Part shown: in pieces, positions 2,260 to 29,119 of the stretch
How positions within the stretch are numbered: position 1 is the stretch's first letter
Layout: the number at the start of each line of letters is the position of its first letter
IMG/VR virus record: IMGVR_UViG_3300011894_000001
Coordinates: 1 to 38,282 of that record
DNA length: 38,282 bases
Source of the DNA: a virus
Strand: one strand, 5' to 3'
The notes under the pieces: generated by a model
What the model was told of the DNA's origin: nothing
Databases searched by the model: none
The model's input: only the letters and a program-made list of their open reading frames with translations
Translations under genes and position numbers: made by a program

Positions 2260-4037
2260 TAATAGATCTCCATGAAAGATTGATTCATTTGTGTTTGGCC
2301 TTCAAGTGGTTCGTTATAAAGTGCATGCATGAGTGACCAGGCTAGATCCGCGTGTCCTATTTCTTCAGAACGGCCTGCTGTAAAAGTCATTTGACGTTGG
2401 CTTGCTGTAAGCGTTTTTTTAATGCTCATTAATGATTGGGAAAGATCAGTCCACCCTGCGTCATACTCAAGACGGCCATTTCTAATGACATCCATTGTTT
2501 TAAGTACAAGTCTGGTTTTTACTTCAGGTGAATAACTGAACTCAGTGACATTTGGGAAAAACTGCTTAACTAATTGAGATACACCTGTACCCATTCCAGT
2601 GATATCAATACCGATATAAGTCACGTAATAACGTAGTGTTGTTTGGAGGATCATTTCTGCCTGATTTTTAAAATCCATCCCACGGAATTGGATTCTTTCT
2701 AACACTCGAAATTTCCCACCAGGAACAGGGGAGGGGGCTACAACTACTAAGCCTGCACTATCACCACTTTCTGCGGGGTCATAACCAATCCAAACAGGAT
2801 TATTGCCGTATGGTCTAGCATGGAATGGTTTAAAGTCATCAGCCCAAACTTCCCATGAGTCAACCATACATGGTTGAAGCATTGCTAAAGGGAAAATAGA
2901 TGCGCCATCATCAATAAATTGGCACATCAAAAGATTTGCAAATTCTTCAGGTGAATATTCGTATCGCAATTCATCAATATCGAATAGATCACATCCGCCA
3001 TTTTCAGCGTCTAAAATCGTAACGATTTGACGCCACATTTTGTCTTCACATAAGCGGCCATTTTTTAATGCATCATGTGATACATCGATATCGAGTCTTT
3101 GGTCTTTAGGTCGCCCACGGTTATTACGTGTTCCATTCCAGAATGTGAAAGCTTCATGCGCCATTGTAGATGGCGTTGAAAAATAGGTTTTACGCCATTT
3201 TTTATGCAAAGCCATAGCCGAAGCTACTTTGTTTAGTTCTGTGAAGCCAAACGTCCAGAAAAACTCATCGAAATAAAAATTACCGTGGTGGCCTTGGGCA
3301 GTTCTGTAATTTGTACCTAAGAATGACAATGAAGCTTGATTGTTATCTGGCAGTACGATCGGATCTCCGACCAATTCAACTCCGCAAGCCTCATATGCAA
3401 AACCTTTAATGTATTCTTTGAAAATATGAGCCTGCGCCTTTGAAGCAGATAAGAAAATTTGATTCCGACCTGTTTTAACAGCATCGACCAAAGCTTCACG
3501 GGCAAAGTACCATGTCGCACCAATTTGGCGGCTTTTGAGAATTACTCGAGTACGTTGGTTGCCTGCTTTATACCAATCGCGCTGATAGTCAAATAGACTA
3601 TCTTCAAAGGCTGAAATAAGTTGTTCAACTTGTTCTTCAGTGAATTGATTATTTTCTTTTTTCTTCTTGGGTGCTGCGTTACGCTTGGCAATATTTGGAT
3701 TTAGATCCGCTTCATTACCGCCTTCTTTATAACGTTCAATTCGGGCAAATTCTTTATAATTTTTAAATAATTCGCTTAATTCTTTATAGTCTCCACTCGA
3801 TTTTTTGTTCTTTAGAGTGAGAGTCATTAAGCGAACTGTTAATGCTTCTTCAACACGACTTTCTGATCGTGTTTTATCCCACTCTTCTCTGGTTTTCCAA
3901 GCCTGAACTGTACGCTCATTTTCGTCTAGCGCTTCAGCAATATCGACAATTTTCCAGCCAAGCCAAAAGAGAAACTTGGCTTTTAATTTGTTATCTAGAA
4001 TCAGCTCAAGATTAGCTAACTGTGATAATTCATTCAT
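2259..4037 (-). CDS. P: Terminase large (ATPase) subunit (P2 gpP-like)
   Basis: 592 aa versus about 590 aa for P2 P. Same position and orientation as P2 P. Confidence 0.9.
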   Translation of the reverse strand: MNELSQLANLELILDNKLKAKFLFWLGWKIVDIAEALDENERTVQAWKTREEWDKTRSESRVEEALTVRLMTLTLKNKKSSGDYKELSELFKNYKEFARIERYKEGGNEADLNPNIAKRNAAPKKKKENNQFTEEQVEQLISAFEDSLFDYQRDWYKAGNQRTRVILKSRQIGATWYFAREALVDAVKTGRNQIFLSASKAQAHIFKEYIKGFAYEACGVELVGDPIVLPDNNQASLSFLGTNYRTAQGHHGNFYFDEFFWTFGFTELNKVASAMALHKKWRKTYFSTPSTMAHEAFTFWNGTRNNRGRPKDQRLDIDVSHDALKNGRLCEDKMWRQIVTILDAENGGCDLFDIDELRYEYSPEEFANLLMCQFIDDGASIFPLAMLQPCMVDSWEVWADDFKPFHARPYGNNPVWIGYDPAESGDSAGLVVVAPSPVPGGKFRVLERIQFRGMDFKNQAEMILQTTLRYYVTYIGIDITGMGTGVSQLVKQFFPNVTEFSYSPEVKTRLVLKTMDVIRNGRLEYDAGWTDLSQSLMSIKKTLTASQRQMTFTAGRSEEIGHADLAWSLMHALYNEPLEGQTQMNQSFMEIY

Positions 4038-4107
4038 GGTTTACGGATTGATTTAATTTCATCCGCAAACGATGGCAGGCAAGTTAGCTTTTATCAGTCA
4101 TGGCAAT

Positions 4108-4128
4108 TTGTATGTCAGTTATATACAA
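4108..4128. promoter_or_regulatory. Late-promoter activator (Ogr-type) dyad element in the divergent P/O intergenic region
   Basis: TTGTATGTCAGTTATATACAA is the exact reverse complement of the element at 10188-10208. It has the TGT...ACA dyad typical of P2-family late promoters. TAATAT at 4153-4158 is a possible -10 toward O. Confidence 0.7.
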
Positions 4129-4215
4129 GCATGCTCAATTGCTACACATAACTAATATTGCCCATTCTGCACCTATTGAAATTGCCCGAAAAAACCTTGC
4201 AACAGGTACAGCAGA

Positions 4216-5046
4216 ATGACTGAAAAAACACAGCCGAAAAAATTTAAATCGAAATGGTTTCGAGTTGCCGTGGCTGGTGACACTACAGATGGTCGTGAAA
4301 TTCAATCTGAATGGATCATCCAAATGGCGCAAACTTACAATCTGAACACTTATGGTGCTCGTATCAATTTAGAGCACATTAAGGGCGTTTCTCCAGATGG
4401 TATTTTCGGAGCTTATGGAGATGTGATCGCCCTTAAAACGGAAAAAGTTACGATCAATGGTGAACAGAAAGATGCCTTGTTTGCACAGATCCAACCAAAT
4501 GAAAATTTGATTGCACTTAATCAAAAAAATCAAAAAATTTATACATCTATCGAAGTCGATGAAAATTTTGCGAAAACTGGCCAAGCCTATTTAGTGGGAC
4601 TTGCCGTTACTGACAGTCCTGCATCGCTTGGTACTGAAATGCTCTCTTTTGCAGCTGGCGCAAATGAAAACCCACTTAAAGCGAAGAAATTACGTCCTGA
4701 AAATTTATTCAGTGCAGCACAAGAAACAAAATTCGAATTCGAAGAAGTTAAAGATTCATTTGCCAGTGACTTATACAACAAAGTTAAAAACTTATTCAAA
4801 ACTCAAGAACAGCAACACCAGCAGACTCAAGAAAACTTTAGTCAAAGCGAACAAGCCATTCTTGAAATTGCTCAGCAAACAGTGACGCAAGGAAATGAGT
4901 TTGCAGACTTAAAAGTCAAACATGAACAGCTGCAGAATGAATTCAATCAATTAAAAAATAAGCTAGATCAAGAACCCCAAGGTCAACCACGGCCACAGTC
5001 TAACAACAGCAAATTTTCTGAAGACGTTGGCGAAATCGACTGTTAA
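4216..5046 (+). CDS. O: Capsid scaffolding protein (P2 gpO-like)
   Basis: 276 aa, first gene of the O-N-M-L operon. Q/E-rich coiled C-terminal part. Confidence 0.85.
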   Translation: MTEKTQPKKFKSKWFRVAVAGDTTDGREIQSEWIIQMAQTYNLNTYGARINLEHIKGVSPDGIFGAYGDVIALKTEKVTINGEQKDALFAQIQPNENLIALNQKNQKIYTSIEVDENFAKTGQAYLVGLAVTDSPASLGTEMLSFAAGANENPLKAKKLRPENLFSAAQETKFEFEEVKDSFASDLYNKVKNLFKTQEQQHQQTQENFSQSEQAILEIAQQTVTQGNEFADLKVKHEQLQNEFNQLKNKLDQEPQGQPRPQSNNSKFSEDVGEIDC

Positions 5047-5102
5047 TTCAGTCGGTTCTAGCAATTTATTAATCCAATTTAATTATATTTAGAGTAAAGA
5101 AA

Positions 5103-6113
5103 ATGCGTACAGAAACACGTGCTAAGTACAATAAAGTCATGGTTGAGTTAGCAAAACTCAATGGGGTTGAAAAAGTTTCACAAAAATTTAATGTGACTCC
5201 AACTGTTCAACAAAAGCTTGAAGATAAAATTCAAGAATCATCTGAATTTTTGAAGAAAATTAATATTTTTGTTGTTCCTGAACAATCGGGTTCTGCGGTT
5301 GGTCTTGGTATTTCTCGCCCTATCGCATCTCGTACAAATACGGATGCTGGAGAGCGTCAAGCTACAGATCCAACTGGTATGGATGAGCGTTTTTACTTTT
5401 GTCGTAAAACCGATTTTGATACCGCAATTAAGTACGCAAAACTTGATCAATGGGCAAAATTCAAAGATTTTTATAGTCGATTCCGTGGCGCTATCGTAAA
5501 ACGACAAGCTCTGGACCGTATCATGATCGGGTTCAATGGTATCAGTATCGCTTCTAATACGGACATTACAGCAAATCCTTTATTGCAAGATGTGAATAAA
5601 GGCTGGTTGCAAAAAATGCGTGAAGAGAATGAATCGCGTGTAATGAAATCAGGTGCTGCGCAAGGAAAAATTACAGTAGGTAAAACTGGCGATTATAAAA
5701 ATCTTGATGCATTGGTTATGAATATCGTTGATGAAATGATTGATGACGTTCACCAGGGCAATCCAGATTTAGTCGTAATGTGTAACCGAAAAACTGTTTC
5801 GGATAAATACTTCCCATTGGTCAATAAAGATCAAGACAACTCTGAAAAACTAGCCGCAGACATCATCATTAGCCAAAAACGTATGGGTGGATTGCCTGTT
5901 TACTCAGTACCGTTTTTCCCTGAAGGAATCATCTTTGTAACTACATTCGATAATTTATCGATTTATGTTCAAGAGGGTGCTCGTCGTCGTACAGTCATTG
6001 ACAATCCAAAACGTGACCAAATCGAGAACTATGAGTCTTCAAACGAAGATTATTACATTGAAGATCTTGGTCTTGCATGTATGGCTGAAAATATCGAAAT
6101 TCTGGCGGAGTAA
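5103..6113 (+). CDS. N: Major capsid protein (P2 gpN-like)
   Basis: 336 aa, positioned between the scaffold and small terminase genes. Confidence 0.9.
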   Translation: MRTETRAKYNKVMVELAKLNGVEKVSQKFNVTPTVQQKLEDKIQESSEFLKKINIFVVPEQSGSAVGLGISRPIASRTNTDAGERQATDPTGMDERFYFCRKTDFDTAIKYAKLDQWAKFKDFYSRFRGAIVKRQALDRIMIGFNGISIASNTDITANPLLQDVNKGWLQKMREENESRVMKSGAAQGKITVGKTGDYKNLDALVMNIVDEMIDDVHQGNPDLVVMCNRKTVSDKYFPLVNKDQDNSEKLAADIIISQKRMGGLPVYSVPFFPEGIIFVTTFDNLSIYVQEGARRRTVIDNPKRDQIENYESSNEDYYIEDLGLACMAENIEILAE

Positions 6114-21159: not shown

Positions 21160-21582
21160 ATGATGATGATATTGGGCATGTTCCCGTTTAGCATCCCGAC
21201 TGCGGTTTACCAGCAGTTACAGCGTAGTACCAACTGGCGGCATCCGAGTAATTCGCGTGTTGGTGAAATGCCAGCCTATCAGTTTGTGGGTAGGGGGGAA
21301 GATACAATTACCTTAGAAGGAAGTATTGTGCCGGAGTTTGGTTCTCAGATGAGTATTACTGCTTTACGTACCATGGGTGATACAGGTAAAAATTTTCCGC
21401 TTATTGCTGGAACAGGTAAAGTTTTTGGGCTTTATCACATTGATGATTTGCAAGAAACACAAACTTACTTTTTTACAGATGGTACTCCTCGAAAAATTGA
21501 GTTTAGTTTAAAGCTGACACAAGGACAGAAGCCAGGAACTCTAATCGGTAATGCTGCAGGTAAATTGATAGGCTTATTATGA
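21160..21582 (+). CDS. U: Tail protein U (P2 gpU-like)
   Basis: MMMILGMFPF......YQ..QR...WRH..N.RVG....YQFVG.GEDTITL.G matches the P2 gpU pattern. Confidence 0.9.
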   Translation: MMMILGMFPFSIPTAVYQQLQRSTNWRHPSNSRVGEMPAYQFVGRGEDTITLEGSIVPEFGSQMSITALRTMGDTGKNFPLIAGTGKVFGLYHIDDLQETQTYFFTDGTPRKIEFSLKLTQGQKPGTLIGNAAGKLIGLL

Positions 21583-23081
21583 CCCTTATTTCCGCAATAA
21601 ATTCAGTTGTTGATGATGTACTGCAGGCGAGTTCTGTTCCTATTTATAAACTTGTTGTTGATGGCGTAGATATCTCATCAAAGGTCAACAATCGCTTAGG
21701 GCAAATGCGTATTGAAAACAAACGTGGTTTTGAGGTTGATACGCTTGATTTAACATTGTCCGATCATGATGGATTACTTGAAATCCCAAGTAAGGGTGCG
21801 GTCATACAAGCATGGCTTGGTTGGCAGCATTCTGGACTTGTTTATAAAGGTAGCTACATCGTTAAAGAAGTTGAGCATGGCGGAGCACCGGATACACTTC
21901 GGATCCGTGCTACCAGCGCAGATATGAAAAAATCTTTAAAGCAAAAAAAGGAACGTAGCTTTGATGATATTGCTTTGGGGGATCTGATTAGAAAGATTGC
22001 AATCGAACATGATCTTAATGACCAAGTATCTGAAGAACTGGCCAAACATAAAATTATTCATATCGATCAAAATGAATCAGATGCAAATTTACTGACTCGT
22101 TTAGCAGATGAGCACGATGCTATAGCTACCATCAAAAACGGTACATTACTCTTTATGCCAAAAGGCCAGAGTCAGACCATTTCTGGCCAAGATTTACCAA
22201 CTTACCTTTTGACCAGGACAAAGGGCGATGAACATCGTTATAGCTATAGTGATGGGGGGGAAGAAGTCACTGCAATTCGAGCTTTTTATTATGATGATAA
22301 GCTGGCCAAAAAACTTGAAGTCATTGTAGGTGATCAATCTAACCAGAATATAAAAGAACTACGGCATATCCATCGTGATAAACAAACCGCGACTTTGGCT
22401 GCTAGAGCCAAACTCAACCACTTTAAACGTACAGCAGAAACACTCAGTTATAAACTGGCCAGAGGAATACCAGATCTTGTCCCGGAACAAACTTTCTTGT
22501 TTATTGGAATCAAAGAGCAGATTGACGAAATTTACTGGCTTGGAACAACGATCACAGACACACTGGACAGTTCAGGTGGATATACAACTGATCTTCAACT
22601 TGAAGTTTTTTTCCCAGATGCAGACGATGTATCTGAACTATTTGAAGACCAATTTGTTTCCGAGAAAGATAAAAAATGGACTGGTGTTGTGGTTTATTAT
22701 CAAGAAGGGGATAAGGCTGTAAAACTGACGAAAGGTGATCAATCAAACCCTAAGCACTTTTCATATCTTTATTTAACTAAAGCTGGAGCACAGCAACGCC
22801 TAGATCGTGAATATGCGCTATTGGATCTCGAGACTGGTAAATTTACAGCGCATAATGAGTTAGACCAGAAGGCTTACACAGGTTTAAAAACACAATACAC
22901 AATCGGCCAAAACAAAAGCCCGAGATATTGGGTAACCTTGGGGGATCAAACTAATCCAAAAGTCATTGATCGTGTATTTCCAAGTAAAGTGGCTGCTGAA
23001 AAACGATTAAAGCGTGAATTACCACGCCTTAATGCTAAGAAAGATATGCTTGAACAAGTCAAAACAGATCAAAAGTTATAA
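21579..23081 (+). CDS. D: Tail/late control protein D (P2 gpD-like) with about 135-aa C-terminal extension
   Basis: 500 aa versus about 387 aa for P2 D. The N-terminal about 365 aa are syntenic with gpD. The extension contains two related modules of about 50 aa. Confidence 0.85.
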   Translation: MTLISAINSVVDDVLQASSVPIYKLVVDGVDISSKVNNRLGQMRIENKRGFEVDTLDLTLSDHDGLLEIPSKGAVIQAWLGWQHSGLVYKGSYIVKEVEHGGAPDTLRIRATSADMKKSLKQKKERSFDDIALGDLIRKIAIEHDLNDQVSEELAKHKIIHIDQNESDANLLTRLADEHDAIATIKNGTLLFMPKGQSQTISGQDLPTYLLTRTKGDEHRYSYSDGGEEVTAIRAFYYDDKLAKKLEVIVGDQSNQNIKELRHIHRDKQTATLAARAKLNHFKRTAETLSYKLARGIPDLVPEQTFLFIGIKEQIDEIYWLGTTITDTLDSSGGYTTDLQLEVFFPDADDVSELFEDQFVSEKDKKWTGVVVYYQEGDKAVKLTKGDQSNPKHFSYLYLTKAGAQQRLDREYALLDLETGKFTAHNELDQKAYTGLKTQYTIGQNKSPRYWVTLGDQTNPKVIDRVFPSKVAAEKRLKRELPRLNAKKDMLEQVKTDQKL

Positions 23082-23872
23082 ATGATCAACTCATTGCCAT
23101 TGTGGTCTTCATGAGCTGCTTTAGAGTTCACTGACCAACGGATTTTACGATGTGTCATTTGATAGTCCTTAAACAGTTCTCTCACTTCAGGCACATCGTT
23201 CAGGCTTAAAATGAACTTTCCTTTAATCTTATCTAGTTTGTCTTTTAGAGTATAAAAATCCTCTTTAGACCAAATGCCTTTACCATAAACATTTTCGCAA
23301 TCCCAATAGGGAGGATCCAGATAAAATAATGTGTCAGGACCATCCAAGCGATTGATGACATAATCATAAGAGCGATTTTCAATGACTACATCTTGCAAAC
23401 GTTCATGAATAGAAACTAAATGTTCCCGTAGACGTTCGCCCAGACGCATGCGGTTCGTTCTATCTTTAGAATAGGTAAAAGAGCCATCTAATTGGCAACC
23501 AAAGGCAGAGCGTAGTAAATAATAAAATTTCACTGCTCTTTGAATATCAGTAAGACCAGATTGGTCACGTTTAAAATCGTCAAATTGAGTACGTGAAAAT
23601 AACAATAATTCAAATTCAGTTAAAAACGCATCAAAGTGAAATTTTAATATGCGATACAGGTTAATCAGATCGTCATTAATGTCATTAATAACTTCTACAG
23701 TAGAAGGGGTTTTTTTAAATAGAACCCATCCTGCTCCGCCGAAGACTTCAACATATGTTTTATGTTCTGGAAGCATATCAATGATTGTTCTAGCTAGTTG
23801 TGATTTACCACCGAGCCAACCACTGAAACTATGTCCACTAGGATTGTATTGTGGTGAGAGGTTTTGTGTCAT
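23069..23872 (-). CDS. dam: DNA N6-adenine methyltransferase, Dam / D12 class
   Basis: Motif I EVFGGAG and motif IV DPPY (LFYLDPPYW). Start moved to ATG 23872 (MTQNLSP), preceded by AGGTAAG. Confidence 0.9.
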   Translation of the reverse strand: MTQNLSPQYNPSGHSFSGWLGGKSQLARTIIDMLPEHKTYVEVFGGAGWVLFKKTPSTVEVINDINDDLINLYRILKFHFDAFLTEFELLLFSRTQFDDFKRDQSGLTDIQRAVKFYYLLRSAFGCQLDGSFTYSKDRTNRMRLGERLREHLVSIHERLQDVVIENRSYDYVINRLDGPDTLFYLDPPYWDCENVYGKGIWSKEDFYTLKDKLDKIKGKFILSLNDVPEVRELFKDYQMTHRKIRWSVNSKAAHEDHNGNELIIYNF

Positions 23873-24035
23873 GAATCTTACCTGGTGTTTGATGCTCTGG
23901 GCATTCAGGTAAGGCACTCAAGGTGCTCTGGAATGTGTTTAGGGTTTTACAACGAGGGCATTTAATTTCGATTTGATTAAAGCCATCTGTTCTAGCCAAT
24001 AATTTAAAACAACATTGGCATTTTAAATTTTGCAT
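23838..24035 (-). CDS. com: Com-like zinc-finger protein (Mu Com family translational activator)
   Basis: MQNLKCQCCFKLLARTDGFNQIEIKCPRCKTLN parallels Mu Com MKSIRCKNCNKLLFKADSFDHIEIRCPRCK. Its 3' end overlaps the methylase start by 35 nt. Confidence 0.85.
   Translation of the reverse strand: MQNLKCQCCFKLLARTDGFNQIEIKCPRCKTLNTFQSTLSALPECPEHQTPGKIHDTKPLTTIQS
23876..23912 (-). promoter_or_regulatory. mRNA hairpin sequestering the dam Shine-Dalgarno
   Basis: On the minus strand, CTTACCTG (23912-23905) pairs with CAGGTAAG (23883-23876). The second arm is the SD 4 nt upstream of the dam ATG. Loop of 21 nt. Confidence 0.6.
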
Positions 24036-24085
24036 ATATTTTTCTGCATTAGAAAAACTGACTAAATACTATAAAAAATATAGAA

Positions 24086-24107
24086 AAAGAACAAATATTT
24101 GTTCTTT
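24086..24107. promoter_or_regulatory. Perfect 22-bp palindrome in the com/ogr divergent intergenic region (candidate operator)
   Basis: AAAGAACAAAT|ATTTGTTCTTT is self-complementary. An extra half-site-like ATATGTTCTT lies at about 24127-24136. Confidence 0.5.
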
Positions 24108-24149
24108 TAATTTAAAATAAATATAAATATGTTCTTAAGGATTTGATAA

Positions 24150-24446
24150 ATGATTGCACCCAATAACTACAACAAAATAAACAAAAACAATTCCCGTCCA
24201 CAACTCGTTTGCCCACACTGTAAAGTTACTAATCTAAAAATTCGCTCAAGTGAGCAACGACACCCTTTACTGAAGGACGTTTGGCTAACATGTCCTAACT
24301 TATTTTGTGGTTTTACATGTGGTGGCCATATTGAAATAACTCATACCATTTCGCCGAGTGCAACGCCAGATCCTCAAATTCATATCCCTACTTTGTTAGA
24401 GCTGAAGTCAGCAAATGATGAAAATTGGGAAGAAAAAAATGACTAA
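24150..24446 (+). CDS. ogr: Ogr/Delta-family zinc-finger late transcription activator
   Basis: CPHC-x23-CPNLFC spacing resembles the Ogr C-x2-C...C-x4-C finger. IRSSEQ and TC.N..C.F....IE also resemble Ogr. Located after D as in P2. Confidence 0.75.
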   Translation: MIAPNNYNKINKNNSRPQLVCPHCKVTNLKIRSSEQRHPLLKDVWLTCPNLFCGFTCGGHIEITHTISPSATPDPQIHIPTLLELKSANDENWEEKND

Positions 24447-24687
24447 ATTTTTAACTGTAATATTTATAAGCCTAGTGTTTATAGGGTGTTCTTCATCTAA
24501 TGATGCAATTAATGCATTAAAAGCAAATGGATTTACGGACATTCAAACTGATGGTCATGCTTTTTTTGCTTGTAGTAAAGACGATACATTTTCCACAAAA
24601 TTTACAGCTAAAAATAAAGATGGCCAGAAAGTTAAAGGTGCTGTTTGCAGTGGTTGGCTGAAGGGAGCGACTATCCGTTATGATTAA
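24415..24687 (+). CDS. Small lipoprotein (cargo; possible superinfection-exclusion factor)
   Basis: Signal peptide ending in lipobox FIGC followed by SSS. Alternative start ATG 24439, with GGGAAG 6 nt upstream. Overlaps the end of ogr. Confidence 0.75.
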   Translation: MMKIGKKKMTKFLTVIFISLVFIGCSSSNDAINALKANGFTDIQTDGHAFFACSKDDTFSTKFTAKNKDGQKVKGAVCSGWLKGATIRYD

Positions 24688-24898
24688 TGTCACACCAGAC
24701 CATTCAATTGCACATGAAGCTTATGAAGCTTTAAAGAACCTTAAATGTGATTACGTAAATATCATTGCCCATACCTATCAAAAGACAGCACATGAAGAAG
24801 GTTTTTTTATTGCAGGCATTTATCCAAATTTTAATGAAGGGGGATTTAATCGCTTAGATTGGTTAGCTGAATATGAGCAGCTGCAGGAAAAAATTTAA
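24680..24898 (+). CDS. Hypothetical 72-aa protein
   Basis: ORF overlapping the lipoprotein stop, so probably translationally coupled. No family recognised. Confidence 0.5.
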   Translation: MINVTPDHSIAHEAYEALKNLKCDYVNIIAHTYQKTAHEEGFFIAGIYPNFNEGGFNRLDWLAEYEQLQEKI

Positions 24899-24996
24899 CT
24901 AGGGCCGATTTCTACAATTTGTAATTCTTCTAGTGGTCAATTTTTATATAATGTACAATCTATTGATCTAGATACTGAGTATAAAAGAAATTACTT

Positions 24997-25773
24997 ATGT
25001 TAATTCAGCCACAAACCCAAATTGATAAACTATTGGGAGAGTTATCAAACTTACCAAAAGGTCGGGTATTGTCTGAATTTGCACTAGCTAGATTTCTAAA
25101 TCAAGCTGATAAGCTTATTTCATTTGATGCTGCTCACGCTTGGCATGTAAAAGGCGTGGCAAATTATTACGCAAATGAAGTGGCAGAAATGATTCGCTGT
25201 TTTGATATAGCAATAAATTTATTACCTACAGACCGAACACTTCTAAATAACTATGCCGCATGTTTAATGAATCAAGGGCAACTTGAGGAGTTATACGAGC
25301 TTGTGAAATCACATATAGATTTTTATATAACAGATATCGATCTTATGCTGAAATTAAGTCGACTCGCTTTAGATAGATTCAATAAAAATTTTATAGATGA
25401 AATAAATCAGTTGTTTGATATGTATTCTGGATATCCGCATATCAATCAAATTCAGCAAGAGTTCTATTTAGAAATACAGAAAGTTGCATCAAAATTAGAG
25501 AATCTGAATATCTCATGGAATGATGCTCTTCAAGTTTCAAACCTAGCATTTCAGCTTATGTTTAATAACAAAGTAAGATCAAATTCTCTTGTTAGAATCA
25601 AAGCTTCAGATGATGAAATAGTAAATATTATTCCTTTATATACAGATATCGAAACCGTTTTTAAGTTAAATGATGAAATTTTTGACGAAATTTTTTCGAG
25701 AGGTTTAATTGATGTATGGAATAAATTTATGTGTATGTTTGTTGTTGCAAGTCATGATGCGATAGCTGCATAG
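24997..25773 (+). CDS. Hypothetical 258-aa all-helical (TPR-like) protein, first gene of a two-gene cargo cassette
   Basis: Very AT-rich, with a TATAAT at 24947-24952 upstream. The helical repeat-like segment AHAWHVKGVANYYANEVAEMIRCFDIAINLLPTDRTLLNNYAACLMNQGQ is TPR-like. Confidence 0.65.
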   Translation: MLIQPQTQIDKLLGELSNLPKGRVLSEFALARFLNQADKLISFDAAHAWHVKGVANYYANEVAEMIRCFDIAINLLPTDRTLLNNYAACLMNQGQLEELYELVKSHIDFYITDIDLMLKLSRLALDRFNKNFIDEINQLFDMYSGYPHINQIQQEFYLEIQKVASKLENLNISWNDALQVSNLAFQLMFNNKVRSNSLVRIKASDDEIVNIIPLYTDIETVFKLNDEIFDEIFSRGLIDVWNKFMCMFVVASHDAIAA

Positions 25774-25789
25774 AGGGTATAGATATTCA

Positions 25790-26185
25790 ATGTCAGTTAA
25801 AGCACGAGATATATTTCAGCATGCTGAGTCTTTTTTTGATCCTAAAAATTGTGATGAAATTGTAGCTAGGATGCTGATAAATAGAGCATATTATGGTATT
25901 TATGGTTATGTTTTGAGTGAGGTAGAGAATCGTCTTTTCTATGATCTAGACAAATCAAATCCTAGTGTACATCAAGCCCTCATTAACACCTTTAAGTACA
26001 AAAAGTGTTCTTCAGTAGATCAACAAAAATTAGTTGCTAAAATTGCAACACAGTTGCGTCAGGCAAGATTATTAAGATCAAATGCTGATTATGAATTGCA
26101 ATATCATATAACTCACAAAGATACTGAACAGGCTCTTTTATTGGGCAAACAAATTTTTGAAATGATTGAGTTACTTGATATTTAG
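25790..26185 (+). CDS. HEPN-like 131-aa protein, second gene of the cassette
   Basis: RAYYGIYGYVLSE helix plus LRQARLLRSNADY resemble the HEPN domain layout (N-terminal A.YY helix, C-terminal R-x4-(H/Y) helix). The canonical His is not evident. GAGGG RBS. Confidence 0.55.
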   Translation: MSVKARDIFQHAESFFDPKNCDEIVARMLINRAYYGIYGYVLSEVENRLFYDLDKSNPSVHQALINTFKYKKCSSVDQQKLVAKIATQLRQARLLRSNADYELQYHITHKDTEQALLLGKQIFEMIELLDI

Positions 26186-26323
26186 ACGTTCTCTTAAATT
26201 TTAATACGTTAATTAATCTAACAATGTACCAGAGGTTCTGTACTTAATGAGTTGGGCAGAAGCTCCACAGATGTGGCTGGCTGGATATAGAGAAAAACAT
26301 GATCAAGATAGCTTAGATTTTAA

Positions 26324-26521
26324 TTAAAAGTTGTCTACTTTGGAGGGGAATGTCCACCAAATCTTATTAAAATAAACCTCATTACGTAAGAAATTGATTT
26401 CTAATTCATTCCCATTGTAATCATAAAGATTGGTGACTTCTCCTTTCTTATTTATCTCTGCAAGCAAATTACAACCGTGCTCTATTTTTCTAGCTTCTAA
26501 AACCCTGATCATGACTTGCAT
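26324..26521 (-). CDS. Hypothetical 65-aa protein
   Basis: ORF 8 nt downstream of the 152-aa gene on the same strand. No family recognised. Confidence 0.45.
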   Translation of the reverse strand: MQVMIRVLEARKIEHGCNLLAEINKKGEVTNLYDYNGNELEINFLRNEVYFNKIWWTFPSKVDNF

Positions 26522-26529
26522 ATAATTTC

Positions 26530-26988
26530 CTATTTAACAGTTTTATAAAATTTTATCTCATATTCTTTAGCTTGTTCAGGCGTAAATTCTCTGTCCAAAC
26601 GAAGTAAAAATAGTCCTTTTTTATACATGTATTGATTAGTCATTGGCATTGCCAAATGTACACTTTTTATATAGTTATAACGTCTATTTAAATCTGCTTG
26701 GTTTCTAAATTTTTCAATAGTCCCACCAACAAATTTTTCAGGCGGTATATCACTATCATAATAACCATCACTTTCAAACTTGGGGTCGACTTCAGGATCT
26801 GGCCATGAAACTTTTTCTATGTATTGATTAGGTCTACCTAATTGGTGATTCAAATCATTTTTTTCATCAAATGGATAGACGAACTCAACACCTTTAATTT
26901 TCATTCCAAAAACAACTTGAATAGCATCTTGTGCAGAACATACAGATGTTGCTAATAAAAAAAACAATCCCAAAAATAATTTATGCAT
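26530..26988 (-). CDS. Secreted/periplasmic 152-aa protein of unknown function
   Basis: Classical Sec signal peptide MHKLFLGLFFLLATSVCSA|QD. A 119-bp AT-rich upstream gap implies its own promoter. Confidence 0.65.
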   Translation of the reverse strand: MHKLFLGLFFLLATSVCSAQDAIQVVFGMKIKGVEFVYPFDEKNDLNHQLGRPNQYIEKVSWPDPEVDPKFESDGYYDSDIPPEKFVGGTIEKFRNQADLNRRYNYIKSVHLAMPMTNQYMYKKGLFLLRLDREFTPEQAKEYEIKFYKTVK

Positions 26989-27107
26989 TAATAAAACCTA
27001 TTATTAAAAATTTTATAAAAGACAATAATCACGATTAACAAATCCTAGATTTTGCACTAGATATTTTCTTTAGATAAGGACTAAAAATTTGAGTTTTTAC
27101 ATGTAAT

Positions 27108-27632
27108 CTACTCGAAGAATTTTCCAAACCACTCTGAGACTTTATTAAAATTTAAAACAAAGGTTGCAAATCCACCAATAAAAAAGATCGTTAGAATATT
27201 AACAAGAAAGTTTTTACCAACTTCACTAAACCACCACCCAGCTCCTTGTTTTTCTGTCATAAACCCATTGATTGTATTCACTTTTGTTTCAACTATTTCC
27301 AGTTGGGCTTTAACTTTTGAATCAAGTAGTGCTTGGTCTTCAAGGGCTGCTATTTCGGAACTTAATGCAACATTTAAAAGATTACTAACGACTATATTTG
27401 CTTGATCACGAAAACCTTTTAAAGAGGAGTCAAGTTCACATTGTGTGTGAAATGTTTCCCACTCTTGATCGTTTGGGTCTCGTTGATGGCGCGATTTTAT
27501 TTGATTAATAAAATCTATCTTATGCTTTTTATAAATTGTATAGGCAACAATACTTTCAAGATTGTACCCCTGATCATTTTCAGTAAGCCTTTGAAATACC
27601 CAGCTATATTTAGGGTCAGGAGTTTGACTCAT
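27108..27632 (-). CDS. 174-aa protein with cytoplasmic helical N-domain and C-terminal transmembrane anchor
   Basis: C-terminal FLVNILTIFFIGGFATFVLNF hydrophobic helix preceded by GAGWWF. ATGA overlap with the upstream 62-aa gene. Confidence 0.65.
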   Translation of the reverse strand: MSQTPDPKYSWVFQRLTENDQGYNLESIVAYTIYKKHKIDFINQIKSRHQRDPNDQEWETFHTQCELDSSLKGFRDQANIVVSNLLNVALSSEIAALEDQALLDSKVKAQLEIVETKVNTINGFMTEKQGAGWWFSEVGKNFLVNILTIFFIGGFATFVLNFNKVSEWFGKFFE

Positions 27633-27817
27633 AACCCTTGCATAGCCTTATTGAAAGCTGCATTCACTGCTTCCATATCTGGTTTAAAGTTACGAACAAC
27701 TTTTCGACCTTCAGCAGACAATGGGATATCTTCTGCTGTGATACCAGGATTATCACGCAGCATTTGATTAAGACGACGGACACTCTCCACAGTAAAGACG
27801 CGTTTACGTTTTTCCAT
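27629..27817 (-). CDS. 62-aa basic protein, first gene of minus-strand cargo operon
   Basis: Start moved to ATG 27817 (MEKRKRVF...), with AGGTG upstream. The track start at 27898 would lie upstream of the predicted promoter. Confidence 0.55.
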   Translation of the reverse strand: MEKRKRVFTVESVRRLNQMLRDNPGITAEDIPLSAEGRKVVRNFKPDMEAVNAAFNKAMQGL

Positions 27818-27851
27818 ACTGCACCTGATTAAATAAAAATAGTACATTGCT

Positions 27852-27883
27852 ATATTGACATAACGATTCACTATCGGCAATAT
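27852..27883. promoter_or_regulatory. Overlapping back-to-back divergent sigma70-like promoters
   Basis: Plus strand: TTGACA (27855-60), N17, CAATAT (27878-83). Minus strand: TTGCCG (rc of 27874-79), N16, CAATAT (rc of 27852-57). Each -35 overlaps the other promoter's -10. Confidence 0.45.
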
Positions 27884-27889
27884 GGAAAA

Positions 27890-27973
27890 GCACAGCAAAA
27901 TCTGTGTACAGGCCTAGGAAACCTGTTAATTTCTCAGAGAGCAGAAAAAATCCGCTCGCAGCGGCTTTTTTTT
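27890..27973 (+). ncRNA. Candidate short terminated transcript carrying boxes a1/b1 (leader or decoy RNA)
   Basis: Runs from the predicted TSS near 27890 to the 16-bp terminator hairpin. Contains GGCCTAGGAAACC (27911-23) and CTCAGAGA (27933-40), both complementary to 28041-28064. Confidence 0.35.
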
Positions 27974-27975
27974 GC
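27941..27975. terminator. Strong bidirectional intrinsic terminator
   Basis: GCAGAAAAAATCCGCT-CGC-AGCGGCTTTTTTTTGC forms a hairpin of about 16 bp, with an A-run on the 5' side and T8 on the 3' side. Confidence 0.8.
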
Positions 27976-27999
27976 CTAAAATGTCAGATCGGCTATACT
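27972..27999 (+). promoter_or_regulatory. Sigma70-like promoter for the antisense-RNA/small ORF/rha transcript
   Basis: TTGCCT (27972-77), N16, TATACT (27994-99). Predicted TSS about 28006. Confidence 0.5.
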
Positions 28000-28005
28000 T
28001 CGTTA

Positions 28006-28081
28006 TGGTAGATCGGCAGGGCAGCCTTGCGCTGGCCGTTTCTCTGAGTACGGTTTTCCTAGCCTTGTCGGTCTGCCACCA
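28006..28081 (+). ncRNA. Candidate c4/CI-like antisense immunity RNA (boxes b' and a')
   Basis: GC-rich island in AT-rich DNA. b' TCTCTGAG (28041-48) sits in the loop of hairpin CCGT/ACGG. a' GGTTTTCCTAGCC (28052-64) follows. GGCAG (28015-19) can pair with CTGCC (28073-77), followed by ACCA. a' and b' are complementary to both upstream (a1/b1) and downstream (a2/b2) boxes. Confidence 0.45.
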
Positions 28082-28137
28082 TTACCCTAGGAAAGTAGTG
28101 GGGGTAGGTTTGCTAAAACTTACTCAGAGTATTCACC

Positions 28138-28308
28138 ATGAAAAAATCTATTCATGTCATCGAGCACACGCCTATCTATGATTTAGAAGCGTTTAAACAA
28201 CGCCAGAAAAAGCGCAAAATTCACCAATTATTCAAAAACGTTATCGACACATTCACGTTCTTATGTGCAGTCTTTATGACTTTTTCTATATTATTCATAG
28301 GGGGATAA
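28138..28308 (+). CDS. Unannotated 56-codon ORF: small protein with C-terminal TM helix (icd/kil-like position)
   Basis: MKKSIHVIEHTPIYDLEAFKQRQKKRKIHQLFKNVIDTFTFLCAVFMTFSILFIGG. Below the ORF-track cutoff. Its stop is 4 nt before the rha ATG. Box b2 (28121-29) covers its weak SD region. Confidence 0.5.
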   Translation: MKKSIHVIEHTPIYDLEAFKQRQKKRKIHQLFKNVIDTFTFLCAVFMTFSILFIGG

Positions 28309-28312
28309 GCTC

Positions 28313-29119
28313 ATGACGACACTCGAATTACAAAATGCTGTATTCATTCAAAATGATCAAATCAAAACTGACAGTCTTAAAGTCGCTGAGATTTTTGGTA
28401 AACCCCATAAAGACGTATTACAAAAGATCAAAACCTTGGATTGTTCAGAGGAATTCACTGAGCGAAATTTTTCGCTCAGCGATTACTTAGATAAATCTGG
28501 ACGTTCATTGCCCATGTATGAAATGACCAAAGATGGCTTTATCTTTCTGGCAATGGGATATACAGGTGCAAAAGCAGCTCAGATCAAAGAAGCCTACATA
28601 AAGGCTTTCAACCAAATGGCTGAGCTGCTCTTAAAACAGCGAAATCAATTGCAAACAATACAAATTGGCTCAGTTGTTCAATTACGCTCAGGTAGTCCAA
28701 ATTTAACTGTAAATAATATTTTCGATGATATTGCTGAAGTGATCTGGTTTAGAGGAGGGCGTATTGTTCGCGAACATCTTCCGATTAGTTGCTTAAGTTT
28801 GGGGGAAAGCGATCAACTTGCACCAAATGTTGCAAGTTCACTTGAGTCATTTTGGTCAAACATGTACACACATGGTATTCACAACTTCAATCATAGCAAT
28901 CGTACCGATCAAATTGCGATTAACCTCACACAAGTTCTAGACCTATTCCCCAATCTGTTTAAACGTCCAGATCTAATTCAGACCCTACCTCACAGTAAAC
29001 CGCCATATCCTAAATATTTGGAACACAATATTGCAATTCAGAGTAGGTTGGAACGTAAAACGATTCGTTGTTGGATATTTACAAGTAGCCAACCTACCAT
29101 GATTGATGTCGGTCGCTAA
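28313..29119 (+). CDS. rha: Rha-family phage regulatory/antirepressor-like protein with DUF2158-like middle domain
   Basis: N-terminus SLKVAEIFGK.HKDVL..I..L......F.ERNF....Y.D..GR..PMYEMTKDGF.FLAMGYTG.KA...K.AYI.AFN.M is the pRha signature. GSVVQLRSGSPNLTV...W is DUF2158-like. Strong GGGGGA RBS. Confidence 0.8.
   Translation: MTTLELQNAVFIQNDQIKTDSLKVAEIFGKPHKDVLQKIKTLDCSEEFTERNFSLSDYLDKSGRSLPMYEMTKDGFIFLAMGYTGAKAAQIKEAYIKAFNQMAELLLKQRNQLQTIQIGSVVQLRSGSPNLTVNNIFDDIAEVIWFRGGRIVREHLPISCLSLGESDQLAPNVASSLESFWSNMYTHGIHNFNHSNRTDQIAINLTQVLDLFPNLFKRPDLIQTLPHSKPPYPKYLEHNIAIQSRLERKTIRCWIFTSSQPTMIDVGR

What the first reader, a model, noticed from the sequence alone, without database searches (positions are those of the whole stretch)
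24997..26185. Two-gene cargo cassette: 258-aa helical/TPR-like protein plus 131-aa HEPN-like protein; candidate defence or toxin-antitoxin system
This is a very AT-rich, self-contained unit with its own TATAAT at 24947-52 and a 16-nt gap between the genes. It is inserted between the late activator gene and the immunity region.

P2-like phages carry anti-phage genes such as old, tin and fun/Z in their variable loci, and published surveys found those loci enriched for defence systems.

The second protein shows the HEPN layout (RAYYGIYGYV helix, then LRSNADY). HEPN domains are RNase effectors in many abortive-infection and TA systems. The partner here is not the usual MNT nucleotidyltransferase but an unrecognised helical repeat protein. 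The canonical R-x4-6-H histidine is not obvious. The pairing may therefore be a new architecture.
Basis: partly seen in the sequence, partly recalled or inferred. Interest (0 to 1): 0.7.

Follow-up and report, generated by a model that had tools for sequence, protein, structure and literature searches.

The report
Prophage TPR–HEPN two-gene cargo cassette
An Acinetobacter P2-like prophage carries a swappable two-gene module, a TPR-repeat protein followed by a small HEPN-fold predicted RNase, that recurs in unrelated phages and genomic islands and looks like an uncharacterised toxin-antitoxin or abortive-infection system, though no function has been tested.

Summary
Two same-strand ORFs of 258 aa (A) and 131 aa (B) lie 16 nt apart in a low-GC block.

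B is a HEPN-fold protein of the AF0298/UPF0332 "HEPN-T" type:
- A profile hits a solved HEPN protein (9xbd, E=3e-8).
- The AlphaFold model (pLDDT 92) best matches 2hsb (TM 0.71-0.74).
- The "missing" motif histidine is typical of this clade. B keeps R96, has D100-Y101, and has an invariant alternative H61 in the helix-2/3 insert.

A is a true TPR array (residues ~1-170) plus a small unidentified alpha/beta C-terminal domain. It has no conserved catalytic residues and is not an MNT nucleotidyltransferase.

The A-then-B pair was present in all 11 distinct genomic contexts sampled. These include P2-like hotspots, other prophages, a site just after a CI-like repressor, and a chromosomal island with RES-Xre and SIR2.

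Among close relatives only 4 loci carry it. Window 24909-26215 is cleanly replaced elsewhere by another two-gene module.

PADLOC, Pfam, PHROGs and the literature searched name no such system.

Most likely reading: B is an RNase toxin or effector and A is a binding antitoxin or sensor. Function is inferred, not shown. I rate it a new variant of a known kind, of moderate interest.

The parts
24909..26215 (.). Replaceable cassette (promoter region + gene A + gene B + 30 nt)
   Evidence: Homology to the near-identical prophage L029 stops at window 24908 and resumes at 26216. In L029, 571 bp of unrelated DNA encoding a different two-gene module sits in its place. GC is 0.308 against a window mean of 0.379.
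24947..24952 (+). Candidate -10 box (TATAAT) for the cassette
   Evidence: Perfect hexamer 45 nt upstream of the ATG in the 98-nt intergenic gap. The hexamer is under-represented in the window (13 against 41 expected). No good -35, and the consensus scan did not call it. No Ogr-type TGT-N12-ACA dyad upstream. Function is inferred only.
24997..25773 (+). Gene A: 258-aa TPR + C-terminal alpha/beta domain protein (predicted partner, antitoxin or sensor)
   Evidence: ORF. AlphaFold best model has pLDDT 88. Family of about 25 full-length clusters of roughly 250 aa. No Pfam family above threshold. Maps to PHROGs 9890, 17809 and 22649, all of unknown function.
24997..25506 (+). A residues ~1-170: TPR-like helical repeat array
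   Evidence: Residues 35-110 match repeatedly inside hundreds of large multi-TPR proteins in an exhaustive hmmsearch. Foldseek top hits are TPR proteins: consensus TPR 8cqp, PilF 2ho1, Pex5, NlpI, all with probability 1.0. Pfam TPR_2 is sub-threshold at E=0.038.
25516..25746 (+). A residues ~174-250: small alpha/beta domain (H-E-E-H-H-E) of unknown family
   Evidence: Secondary structure of the model. No Pfam or PDB sequence match; the PPR hits are repeat-summing artefacts. Carries the near-invariant N225-D226 among close relatives. Faint resemblance to the C-termini of otherwise unrelated HEPN partners.
25773..25777 (+). GAGGG Shine-Dalgarno-like element for gene B, overlapping A's stop codon
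   Evidence: Read directly from the sequence. It lies 12 nt upstream of the ATG. The A-B junction ranges from a 20-nt overlap to a 25-nt gap in all loci examined.
25790..26185 (+). Gene B: 131-aa minimal HEPN-fold protein (AF0298/UPF0332-like HEPN-T; predicted RNase effector or toxin)
   Evidence: phrog_5176 at 2.4e-23. Profile hits PDB 9xbd 'HEPN domain-containing protein' at E=3.3e-8 and touches 2hsb. Model pLDDT 92. Foldseek top hit is 2hsb with TM 0.71/0.74, followed by 1wol, 1ufb, 1ylm and HepT 5yep. 10 of 17 relatives weakly hit Pfam HEPN. PADLOC HEPN_IX is weak.
25970..25972 (+). Codon for H61: invariant alternative histidine in the insert helix between HEPN helices 2 and 3
   Evidence: Invariant in 13 homologues down to 18-25% identity. 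Lies in helix 60-69, between helices 23-49 and 76-100. Matches the alternative active-site His described for AF0298-like HEPN-T and AbiV.
26075..26092 (+). Codons for R96-S-N-A99-D100-Y101: variant of the HEPN Rx4-6H motif (R-x3-D-Y)
   Evidence: R96, A99, D100, Y101 and L103 are invariant across the family. The block aligns with LRNRSDY of 9xbd (its Y-to-F mutant is 9xbc) and LREESDY of 2hsb.

Best explanation
The cassette is a mobile two-gene toxin-antitoxin-like or abortive-infection module carried as prophage cargo.

Gene B encodes a minimal HEPN domain of the AF0298/UPF0332 (HEPN-T) type. It is predicted to be a metal-independent endoribonuclease. Its active site would be built from R96 of the degenerate R-x3-D-Y motif plus the alternative histidine H61, with E23, R27 and Y101 nearby.

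Gene A takes the place that the MNT nucleotidyltransferase antitoxin holds in classical HEPN-MNT systems, but A is not an enzyme. It is a TPR array plus a small alpha/beta domain.

I infer the following steps:
1. A and B are co-translated from one operon.
2. A binds B and keeps it inactive in the lysogen.
3. A's fast-evolving TPR surface either binds a component of an infecting phage, or A is titrated or degraded during infection.
4. B is then released to cleave RNA and abort the infection.

Shown here: the ORFs, the HEPN fold and motif set of B, the TPR nature of A, strict A-then-B linkage across distant homologues, cassette mobility, and absence from known-system libraries.

Inferred only: RNase activity, A-B binding, toxicity and neutralisation, the trigger, and any defence phenotype.
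For: 1. B has a HEPN fold. The profile hits PDB 9xbd at E=8e-6 to 3e-8. The model has pLDDT 92, and its top Foldseek hit is AF0298 2hsb (TM 0.71-0.74), followed by further HEPN and HepT toxin structures.

2. Polar residues E23, R27, H61, R96, D100 and Y101 are invariant at about 20% overall identity. That pattern suggests an active site, and it matches the alternative-His site proposed for AF0298-like HEPN-T and AbiV (PMC3710099).

3. A is upstream of B, on the same strand, with a junction from a 20-nt overlap to a 25-nt gap, in all 11 distinct contexts sampled. Downstream partners are confirmed as B homologues. Partner-first order matches the upstream antitoxin of classical type II and MntA-HepT operons (my own knowledge, not checked here).

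4. Contexts are typical of accessory, TA or defence cargo:
- the slot near ogr in P2-like phages, beside an Mrr-like nuclease and an AAA_15+DUF4435 pair;
- directly after a CI-like S24 repressor;
- a chromosomal island with RES-Xre, an Unstab_antitox gene and SIR2;
- an insertion among tail and baseplate genes beside LprI genes.

5. Only 4 of 50 related P2-like loci fetched carry it (about 40 of those extend past ogr). The breakpoints are clean.

6. A has essentially no invariant residues family-wide. It diverges faster than B among closer relatives: 47 vs 80%, 34 vs 55%, 38 vs 54%, 38 vs 51%. This fits a binding or sensing partner paired with a conserved effector.

7. A 2013 survey reports that HEPN proteins lacking the canonical motif still scored as toxins in a genome-scale cloning screen.
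Against: - No experiment or complex prediction supports A-B binding, B toxicity or RNase activity.
- The canonical catalytic His is absent. The alternative-site idea is itself a published prediction, and I could not measure the H61-R96 distance in the model.
- Window B alone does not reach any Pfam HEPN score. Relatives reach only E=0.0014.
- PADLOC recognises no system.
- In the closest Acinetobacter relatives the same slot holds cargo with no recognisable defence genes, so the 'defence hotspot' status of this slot is not demonstrated.
- Neither a strong promoter nor a terminator was found.
- The A model rests on 5 sequences, and four of the five models had pLDDT of only 72-78.
Confidence: 0.5

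Rival explanations
1. It is a plain addiction or stabilisation toxin-antitoxin module. B is the toxin and A a labile binding antitoxin. The module maintains itself and its host element but gives no phage defence.
For: The architecture and mobility evidence is the same as for the main explanation. One context sits among other TA genes, RES-Xre and Unstab_antitox. One strain has an N-terminally truncated B next to a full-length A. That is compatible with toxin decay, but it is a single case.
Against: The module repeatedly sits in prophage accessory or hotspot positions, and directly after a prophage repressor, where exclusion genes are commonly found (my own knowledge). TPR arrays are more typical of sensors than of labile antitoxins. 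Sequence alone does not separate this reading from the main one.
Confidence: 0.2
2. B is a non-catalytic HEPN domain that binds RNA or nucleotides. The A-B complex then serves the phage itself, for example in regulating lysogeny or late gene expression, or in counter-defence by sequestering a host signal or factor. It would not be a toxin.
For: The canonical Rx4-6H histidine is missing. HEPN domains lacking the motif are proposed to act non-catalytically in some families, such as MtlR. The cassette is transcribed in the same direction as ogr and the late genes, with no terminator in between. The family is mostly found in phages.
Against: Invariant H61, R96, E23, R27, D100 and Y101 fit the predicted alternative catalytic site. 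The pair also occurs outside phages, in a chromosomal island next to TA and SIR2 genes. It is dispensable and swapped out in most close relatives, so it is not a core regulatory function.
Confidence: 0.15
3. The roles are reversed, or A is the effector. The TPR protein would be the harmful component, for example by sequestering an essential host protein, and the small HEPN-fold protein would be its inhibitor or adaptor.
For: Small four-helix proteins can act as antitoxins or immunity proteins. HEPN domains fused to MNTs are often inactive regulatory modules.
Against: A lacks any conserved catalytic or otherwise invariant residues, while B carries the conserved polar constellation. B is the more conserved partner. 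HEPN proteins are toxins or effectors in the characterised TA, Abi and CRISPR systems reviewed.
Confidence: 0.05

Closest known systems
AF0298/UPF0332-like HEPN-T proteins (Pfam PF05168 clade; PDB 2hsb; also the 2026 entries 9xbd and 9xbc)
   Same: Same size (~125-131 aa) and same four/five-helix HEPN fold (TM 0.71-0.74 to 2hsb). Same motif set: sRAYY in helix 2, a conserved His in the helix-2/3 insert, and R-x3-D-Y in place of Rx4-6H. JGI and UniRef already label B as UPF0332 / HEPN domain-containing.
   Different: Sequence similarity is remote: 15% identity to 2hsb, and window B gets no Pfam HEPN hit at all. HEPN-T proteins are described as standalone or associated or fused with MNT nucleotidyltransferases. 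B is instead always paired with a TPR protein.
Type VII HepT-MntA (HEPN-MNT) toxin-antitoxin systems
   Same: A two-gene operon with the partner gene upstream of a small HEPN toxin-like gene. There is structural similarity to HepT (5yep, 7bxo, 6m6u; probability 0.94-0.95, TM ~0.52-0.58). A conserved Tyr sits in or next to the R motif.
   Different: There is no MNT. A has no nucleotidyltransferase motifs or hits, so neutralisation by oligoAMPylation of the Tyr cannot apply. B lacks the motif His.
Lactococcal AbiV (single-protein HEPN abortive-infection system)
   Same: [quoted passage not shown] It is a proven anti-phage Abi protein.
   Different: No match to any AbiV model in PADLOC. AbiV has no operon partner listed in the survey table, and to my knowledge it is larger. 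B is 131 aa and strictly paired with A.
HEPN families noted in operons with TPR or Sel1 proteins (LA2681 family; AbiU2) in Anantharaman et al. 2013
   Same: There is a gene-neighbourhood precedent for a HEPN protein encoded next to, or fused to, a TPR/Sel1 repeat protein.
   Different: Those HEPN families keep the canonical Rx4-6H (table entry 'Yes') and are different families. I could not retrieve their sequences to compare. None is experimentally characterised as a TPR-HEPN pair in the literature I searched.
P2/P4 hotspot defence cargo (old, tin, fun/Z, PARIS and others; Rousset et al. 2022)
   Same: A swappable cassette in a variable slot of a P2-family prophage near ogr. A homologous pair in another P2-like element lies beside an Mrr-like nuclease and an AAA_15+DUF4435 (PARIS-like) pair.
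   Different: It is not one of the described systems, and HEPN is mentioned there only for P4 loci. This Acinetobacter/phiCTX-like lineage has a different hotspot layout, and the other occupants of its slot are unannotated.
DefensePredictor DS-28 (E. coli, validated two-gene system: 163-aa HEPN nuclease + 252-aa hypothetical protein)
   Same: A small HEPN protein plus a partner of about 250 aa, validated as anti-phage.
   Different: Unrelated by profile comparison (probability below 1% for both proteins). DS-28 has a canonical RNSVAH motif, the HEPN gene comes first, and the partner is not TPR.

Membership tests
HEPN superfamily | All-alpha up-down helical bundle with the HEPN topology | tested here: met
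   AlphaFold model with pLDDT 92 and five helices. Foldseek top hit is 2hsb (probability 1.0, TM 0.71/0.74), followed by 1wol, 1ufb, 1ylm, 5yep and 7bxo. The sequence profile hits 9xbd 'HEPN domain-containing protein' at E=3.3e-8.
HEPN superfamily | Canonical Rx4-6H endoRNase motif at the end of helix 3 | tested here: not met
   R96 is invariant, but the motif reads R-S-N-A-D-Y. There is no His within 4-6 residues in any of 13 diverse homologues.
AF0298-like HEPN-T clade (PF05168 / UPF0332) | R retained, D (not H) in the motif, and a second strongly conserved His N-terminal to it in the insert between helices 2 and 3 | tested here: met
   R96, D100 and H61 are invariant. H61 lies in helix 60-69, between helices 23-49 and 76-100. 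The description is in PMC3710099.
AF0298-like HEPN-T clade (PF05168 / UPF0332) | Pfam PF05168 score above the gathering threshold | tested here: not met
   Window B gives no PF05168 hit at E<=1. 10 of 17 relatives hit only weakly, best E=0.0014. Assignment to this clade therefore rests on profile-to-PDB and fold evidence.
[quoted passage not shown] | Cognate MNT nucleotidyltransferase antitoxin encoded adjacent | tested here: not met
   The upstream partner is a TPR + alpha/beta protein with no NTase hit. No NTase is found among the ten neighbouring ORFs.
[quoted passage not shown] | Neutralisation by oligoAMPylation of a Tyr next to the RNase motif | not testable with these tools
   Y101 is invariant, but with no MNT present the mechanism has no enzyme. 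This needs biochemistry.
AbiV | Match to an AbiV family profile | tested here: not met
   No AbiV hit in PADLOC for B or for 13 relatives.
TPR repeat proteins (protein A) | Tandem 34-residue helix-turn-helix repeats recognised by TPR profiles or fold | tested here: met
   Pfam TPR_2 and TPR_17 are sub-threshold (E=0.038 and 0.095). However, residues 35-110 match repeatedly within hundreds of multi-TPR proteins, down to E=5e-21, and Foldseek hits are TPR proteins with probability 1.0.
Known anti-phage defence systems (PADLOC-DB v2.0) | Both genes match the models of a defined system | tested here: not met
   Only a weak generic HEPN_IX hit for B (E=0.0021; 7 of 13 relatives). There is nothing consistent for A. 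DefenseFinder and later model sets were not available.
Toxin-antitoxin module (generic) | Conserved, tightly linked two-gene operon on mobile DNA | tested here: met
   A-then-B on the same strand in every context sampled, with junctions from a 20-nt overlap to a 25-nt gap. The cassette is mobile.
Toxin-antitoxin module (generic) | Toxicity of one product, neutralised by the other | not testable with these tools
   Requires expression experiments.
P2-family variable hotspot cargo | Presence/absence or replacement at a fixed position between conserved phage genes | tested here: met
   4 of 50 related loci fetched carry A-B (about 40 extend past ogr). Breakpoints are at 24908/26216, and an alternative 145-aa + 74-89-aa module fills the slot in the others.
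P2-family variable hotspot cargo | The slot is enriched for recognised defence systems | tested here: inconclusive
   In a distant P2-like element the pair sits next to Mrr_cat and AAA_15+DUF4435 genes. In the close Acinetobacter relatives the slot and its neighbours hold unannotated genes, HNH_5 proteins and an IS.

The most novel reading that the evidence does not exclude
The pair is a minimal two-protein 'sensor plus RNase' abortive-infection system. A's variable TPR surface would directly recognise a phage protein. Through its small conserved C-terminal alpha/beta domain, A would then release or activate a HEPN RNase that works through the never-validated alternative His (H61) / Arg (R96) active site. 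The same C-terminal module may be the common HEPN-docking element in otherwise unrelated partners (the Vibrio 262-aa and L020 203-aa proteins). That would define a broader family of non-enzymatic, interchangeable regulators for UPF0332-type HEPN toxins, in place of MNT.
Probability: 0.25. Interest if true: 0.65.

Novelty: new variant of a known kind. Interest (0 to 1): 0.5.

Why it matters
HEPN RNases are among the most common effectors in toxin-antitoxin, abortive-infection and CRISPR-associated systems. The small UPF0332/AF0298-type HEPN proteins are known mainly as partners of MNT nucleotidyltransferases, and their proposed alternative active site has not been tested in any paper I found.

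This cassette offers three things:
- A compact, naturally mobile case in which the MNT is replaced by a non-enzymatic TPR protein. That implies a different control logic (binding or sensing rather than AMPylation).
- A tractable system to test the alternative His/Arg site.
- A candidate prophage-encoded immunity gene pair circulating in the Acinetobacter calcoaceticus-baumannii complex. The exact proteins are on about 150-200 public contigs, which is relevant to phage-therapy host range.

If it proves inert or merely addictive, it is one more hotspot accessory cassette.

Tried and rejected
- **No close phage relative by DNA.** A near-identity DNA search of 24000-27000 against INPHARED phages found nothing. 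tblastn of A found nothing, and B hit only one Vibrio P2-like phage.
- **Species-representative genomes.** GTDB scans with the B and A profiles found no relative.
- **Vibrio partner homology.** Homology of the Vibrio 262-aa partner to A was not supported (BLASTP not significant; hhalign probability 3.5%). Only faint N- and C-terminal resemblances exist.
- **L020 partner.** The 203-aa partner of the tandem pair in L020 is not significantly related to A (probabilities 1.5% and 5%).
- **A's C-terminal domain.** No Pfam or PDB relative was found. The PPR 'hits' have no individually significant stretch and were rejected as repeat artefacts. The weak PADLOC REase_II hit (E=3.8e-4, 2 of 26 members) was rejected as inconsistent.
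- **MNT-like reading of A's C-terminus.** Rejected: no NTase hit in Pfam or PDB, no G-S / DxD motif by my reading of the alignment, and no invariant residue.
- **DefensePredictor DS-28.** Unrelated.
- **L027 as a 'B-less' natural experiment.** Rejected: B is intact there and was simply not called.
- **Ogr-dependent late promoter upstream of A.** None found.
- **Structured RNA or repeats.** None inside the cassette. The 12-nt direct repeat flanking it (24849 / 26308) is probably chance.
- **Literature.** Searches for a named TPR-HEPN system, for UPF0332, and for PDB 9xbd found nothing relevant. The 2026 fused MNT-HEPN paper did not account for 9xbd.
Full report
**1. The observation**

The window contains the two ORFs at exactly the reported coordinates. 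Gene A is 24997..25773 (+, 258 aa) and gene B is 25790..26185 (+, 131 aa), separated by 16 nt. A GAGGG element overlaps A's stop codon, 12 nt before B's ATG.

This hexamer is under-represented in the window (13 copies against about 41 expected), so its position is suggestive. It has no acceptable -35, and the consensus scan called neither a promoter there nor a terminator after B. No P2-type TGT-N12-ACA late-promoter dyad lies upstream.

The cassette's GC is 0.308 against 0.379 for the window, in the lowest 1.8% of equal-sized windows. The whole accessory block 24.0-27.6 kb is similarly low at 0.316.

The conserved Arg and Tyr are R96 and Y101, not R103 and Y108.

**2. Setting**

The window is a P2/phiCTX-family prophage of Acinetobacter:
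- The gpD-like tail gene (21579..23081) is 46% identical to phiCTX gene D.
- It is followed by a Dam-family methyltransferase on the minus strand (23069..23917).
- Next comes an Ogr/Delta zinc-finger late activator (24150..24446, Pfam 1.7e-8), then two small genes of 90 aa and 72 aa, then A-B.
- To the right lie four minus-strand genes of 65, 152, 174 and 89 aa.
- Beyond those is a region with a C4 antisense RNA (28001..28083, 52 bits against a gathering score of 45), a Rha-family gene, a Toprim/DUF927 primase-like gene, an exonuclease and an integrase.

So the cassette is near, but not adjacent to, both ogr and the immunity-type region.

The exact A and B proteins occur on about 146 and 205 public contigs from A. 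baumannii, A. pittii, A. nosocomialis, A. calcoaceticus and A. geminorum. They usually have consecutive accession numbers. They are named 'hypothetical', 'tetratricopeptide repeat protein', and 'UPF0332 family / HEPN domain-containing protein'.

**3. Protein B is a HEPN domain of the AF0298/UPF0332 type**

Direct library scans are weak. There is no Pfam hit, PADLOC HEPN_IX scores E=0.0021, and PHROG 5176 (unknown function) scores 2.4e-23. Three independent lines agree, however:
- A profile of 13-17 homologues hits the solved 'HEPN domain-containing protein' 9xbd at E=8e-6 to 3e-8 and touches 2hsb, 'UPF0332 protein AF0298'. Ten of 17 relatives give weak Pfam HEPN hits.
- The AlphaFold model is confident (pLDDT 92, pTM 0.85). 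Its best PDB match is 2hsb (probability 1.0, TM 0.71/0.74), followed by other HEPN proteins and the HepT toxins 5yep, 7bxo and 6m6u.
- Across homologues down to about 20% identity the invariant residues are E23, R27, Y34, Y35, H61, R96, A99, D100, Y101 and L103.

In AbiV and the AF0298-like HEPN-T family the motif His is typically absent (often replaced by D) while the Arg is kept. A second strongly conserved His, in the insert between helices 2 and 3, is proposed to form an alternative active site (PMC3710099).

B fits this description. It has R96-x3-D100-Y101, and H61 lies in the short helix 60-69 between helices 23-49 and 76-100. 9xbd and 2hsb carry the same sRAYY / His / R-x3-D-Y blocks, and 9xbc is a Y-to-F mutant of that tyrosine.

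B is therefore a member of the HEPN superfamily by fold. By motif it belongs to the AF0298-like clade. It fails the canonical-motif test and the Pfam gathering threshold.

**4. Protein A is a TPR protein with an extra C-terminal domain, and is not an enzyme**

Pfam TPR hits are sub-threshold. An exhaustive profile search of 1.84 billion representatives gave 367 hits of two kinds:
- about 25 full-length proteins of 245-290 aa, which are the true family;
- many large multi-TPR proteins that match residues ~35-110 several times each.

The best AlphaFold model (pLDDT 88; the other four were 72-78, and the alignment had only 5 sequences) shows helical repeats to about residue 170. It then shows an alpha/beta unit: H174-190, E200-203, E208-214, H218-234, H238-243, E244-250.

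Foldseek against the PDB returns only TPR proteins. Against viral models it returns two uncharacterised full-length phage analogues (E=2e-9 and 6e-7).

The C-terminal domain has no Pfam or PDB sequence relative. Across 26 family members only N85 is nearly invariant. I see no G-S/DxD nucleotidyltransferase signature in that alignment. A is thus best read as a binding protein.

**5. The pairing is conserved and the module is mobile**

Every context recovered for an A or B homologue has the same arrangement: an A-like gene upstream, a B-like gene downstream, on the same strand, with a junction between a 20-nt overlap and a 25-nt gap.

| Context | Loci |
|---|---|
| Another P2-like element, just after ogr, beside an Mrr-like nuclease; in one variant also an AAA_15+DUF4435 pair | L009-L012 |
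| A different prophage type | L002-L005 |
| Myovirus-like elements, between LprI genes and baseplate genes; two loci have a second tandem '203 aa + 126-aa HEPN' pair | L006-L008, L019-L021 |
| Immediately downstream of a CI-like S24 repressor | L022, L023 |
| A chromosomal island with Unstab_antitox, RES-Xre and SIR2 genes | L026, L027 |
| Short metagenomic contigs | L018, L024, L025, L028 |
| A Vibrio P2-like phage, after late control gene B; its 262-aa partner is not detectably homologous to A | L001 |

The downstream proteins are all B homologues that retain the invariant residues.

Among 50 IMG/VR loci encoding close gpD relatives (about 40 extend past ogr), only four carry A-B (L031, L035, L042, L044). 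Alignment to the near-identical L029 shows homology ending at 24908 and resuming at 26216. In L029 the 1,307-bp cassette is replaced by 571 bp that encode a different, unannotated two-gene module of about 145 aa plus 74-89 aa. That module is the majority occupant of the slot.

The pair was absent from 185,579 species-representative genomes at the sensitivity of the pattern scan, so it is uncommon.

**6. Mechanism**

The most economical reading is a toxin-antitoxin-like or abortive-infection module. B would be the RNase effector using R96/H61. A would be a non-enzymatic partner in the place normally held by the MNT antitoxin of HEPN-MNT systems, where neutralisation is by oligoAMPylation of a Tyr next to the motif. 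With no NTase present, control must be by binding.

Supporting inferences:
- The partner-first gene order, as in classical antitoxin-toxin operons (my own knowledge).
- B's conserved polar constellation, against A's lack of invariant residues.
- Faster divergence of A than of B among closer relatives: 47 vs 80%, 34 vs 55%, 38 vs 54%, 38 vs 51%. This is what is expected if A's TPR surface is the specificity or sensing element.
- The accessory, TA and defence-type neighbourhoods.
- The published note that HEPN proteins without the canonical motif still scored as toxins in a genome-scale cloning screen.

None of binding, toxicity, RNase activity or phage protection is shown here. One strain has an N-terminally truncated B (90 aa, lacking residues 1-41) next to a full-length A that carries D226N. 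This is compatible with toxin decay but is a single anecdote.

Rivals are a purely addictive TA, a non-catalytic HEPN serving a phage regulatory or counter-defence role, and reversed roles. They are listed separately with their tests.

**7. Comparison with known systems, and novelty**

B is closest to AF0298/UPF0332 HEPN-T proteins. The operon logic is closest to HepT-MntA, but the defining MNT is absent, so it is not a member. AbiV shares the alternative-His feature but does not match by profile.

HEPN genes in operons with TPR or Sel1 proteins were noted in 2013 for other, canonical-motif families, LA2681 and AbiU2. The validated E. coli DS-28 system (a HEPN protein plus a 252-aa partner) is unrelated.

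PADLOC v2 recognises no system here. Full-text searches found no paper describing this pair. Newer DefenseFinder and PADLOC models could not be run.

I classify it as a new variant of a known kind: a HEPN-based two-gene conflict module with a non-MNT, TPR partner.

**8. Verdict**

The structural and 'cargo' parts of the interpretation are supported and sharpened. The functional claim remains a well-motivated hypothesis.

Interest is moderate, at 0.5. This is a clean, experimentally tractable candidate that could test the alternative HEPN active site and a non-enzymatic mode of HEPN control. It falls within an expected category of prophage cargo.

Noticed in passing
window 27891-28083 (+), with 28138-28308 and 28313-29119: Rfam C4 antisense RNA (RF01695) at 28001-28083 scores 52.1 bits, above the gathering score of 45 (E=2.7e-8). 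A weaker isrK-like match lies at 27891-27971 (33.6 bits, below its gathering score of 50). Both sit upstream of a 56-aa ORF and a Rha-family gene (Pfam 7.6e-31). To my knowledge this resembles the P1/P7 immI layout (c4 RNA, icd, ant), here inside a P2-like prophage. A bidirectional terminator-like hairpin lies at 27952-27964.
   Followed up: partly
L029:11097-11667, and the equivalent slot in L030, L032, L034, L037, L039, L045-L049, L054, L057: In most close relatives the A-B slot holds a different conserved two-gene module: about 145 aa (MKRVQHLTPILN...) plus 74-89 aa (MHPEELFELFYKNVRLDMNP...). Neither has a Pfam or PADLOC hit. It is an alternative cassette of unknown function at the same site.
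   Followed up: partly
L032, L034, L039, L045, L047, L057, L060, L061 (region between the orf65 homologue and Rha/orf188); window 26324-27898 (-): A second, larger variable region lies right of the cassette on the minus strand. Different relatives carry HNH_5 endonuclease-domain proteins (333-364 aa), 490-520-aa proteins with only weak coiled-coil-type matches (one with a weak SLATT-like hit), proteins whose N-termini look membrane-spanning, or an IS (rve). The window itself has a 152-aa protein that appears to have a signal peptide and a 174-aa protein with a hydrophobic C-terminus.
   Followed up: partly
L020:2803-3775 and 4001-5188; L021:222-1194 and 1420-2607: Two 'partner + small HEPN' pairs sit in tandem: 203 aa + 126 aa (weak Pfam HEPN), then 262 aa + 130 aa. 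The 203-aa partner is not significantly related to A. It aligns only weakly at the same C-terminal ...LND... segment (hhalign probability 1.5-5%).
   Followed up: partly
L010:7195-10563 (also L009:7195-8187): In another P2-like element the A-B homologues lie directly beside an Mrr_cat/NA-iREase1 nuclease. In L010 there is also an AAA_15 ATPase + DUF4435 pair, which to my knowledge is the domain pair of PARIS. This is the clearest defence-island-like neighbourhood found for the module.
   Followed up: no
L001:4223-5417 (Vibrio phage PQ189350, after late control gene B): A Vibrio P2-like phage has a 262-aa + 138-aa pair at the analogous position. The 138-aa protein is a B homologue (32% identity, E=3e-12). 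The 262-aa partner shows no significant similarity to A (hhalign probability 3.5-15%), which suggests partner replacement or extreme divergence.
   Followed up: partly
window 23069-23917 (-): A Dam-family N6-adenine methyltransferase with no adjacent restriction gene is wedged convergently between gpD and ogr, overlapping the gpD 3' end by 13 nt. It is conserved in most of the related loci surveyed (70-99% identity), so it behaves as core rather than cargo.
   Followed up: partly
window 24415-24687 (+): A 90-aa lipoprotein-like ORF (phrog_902, 1.2e-24) overlaps the 3' end of ogr by 32 nt. It is present in only some close relatives, making it another small presence/absence accessory gene.
   Followed up: partly
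whole window: The hexamer TATAAT is about three-fold depleted on both strands: 13 observed against 41.3 ± 6.9 in dinucleotide-preserving shuffles, and every shuffle had at least 13.
   Followed up: no
P0193 / P0179 (A. baumannii MDV4339981.1 / MDV4339980.1): One strain encodes an N-terminally truncated B (90 aa, starting at residue 42) next to a full-length A. That A carries D226N at a residue invariant among close relatives. It could be decay of the module or a gene-calling artefact.
   Followed up: partly
window 24849-24860 and 26308-26319: A 12-nt imperfect direct repeat (ATCGCTTAGATT / ATAGCTTAGATT) lies in the conserved flanks, 50-90 nt outside the cassette breakpoints. It is probably chance, but it could mark a recombination site.
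   Followed up: no
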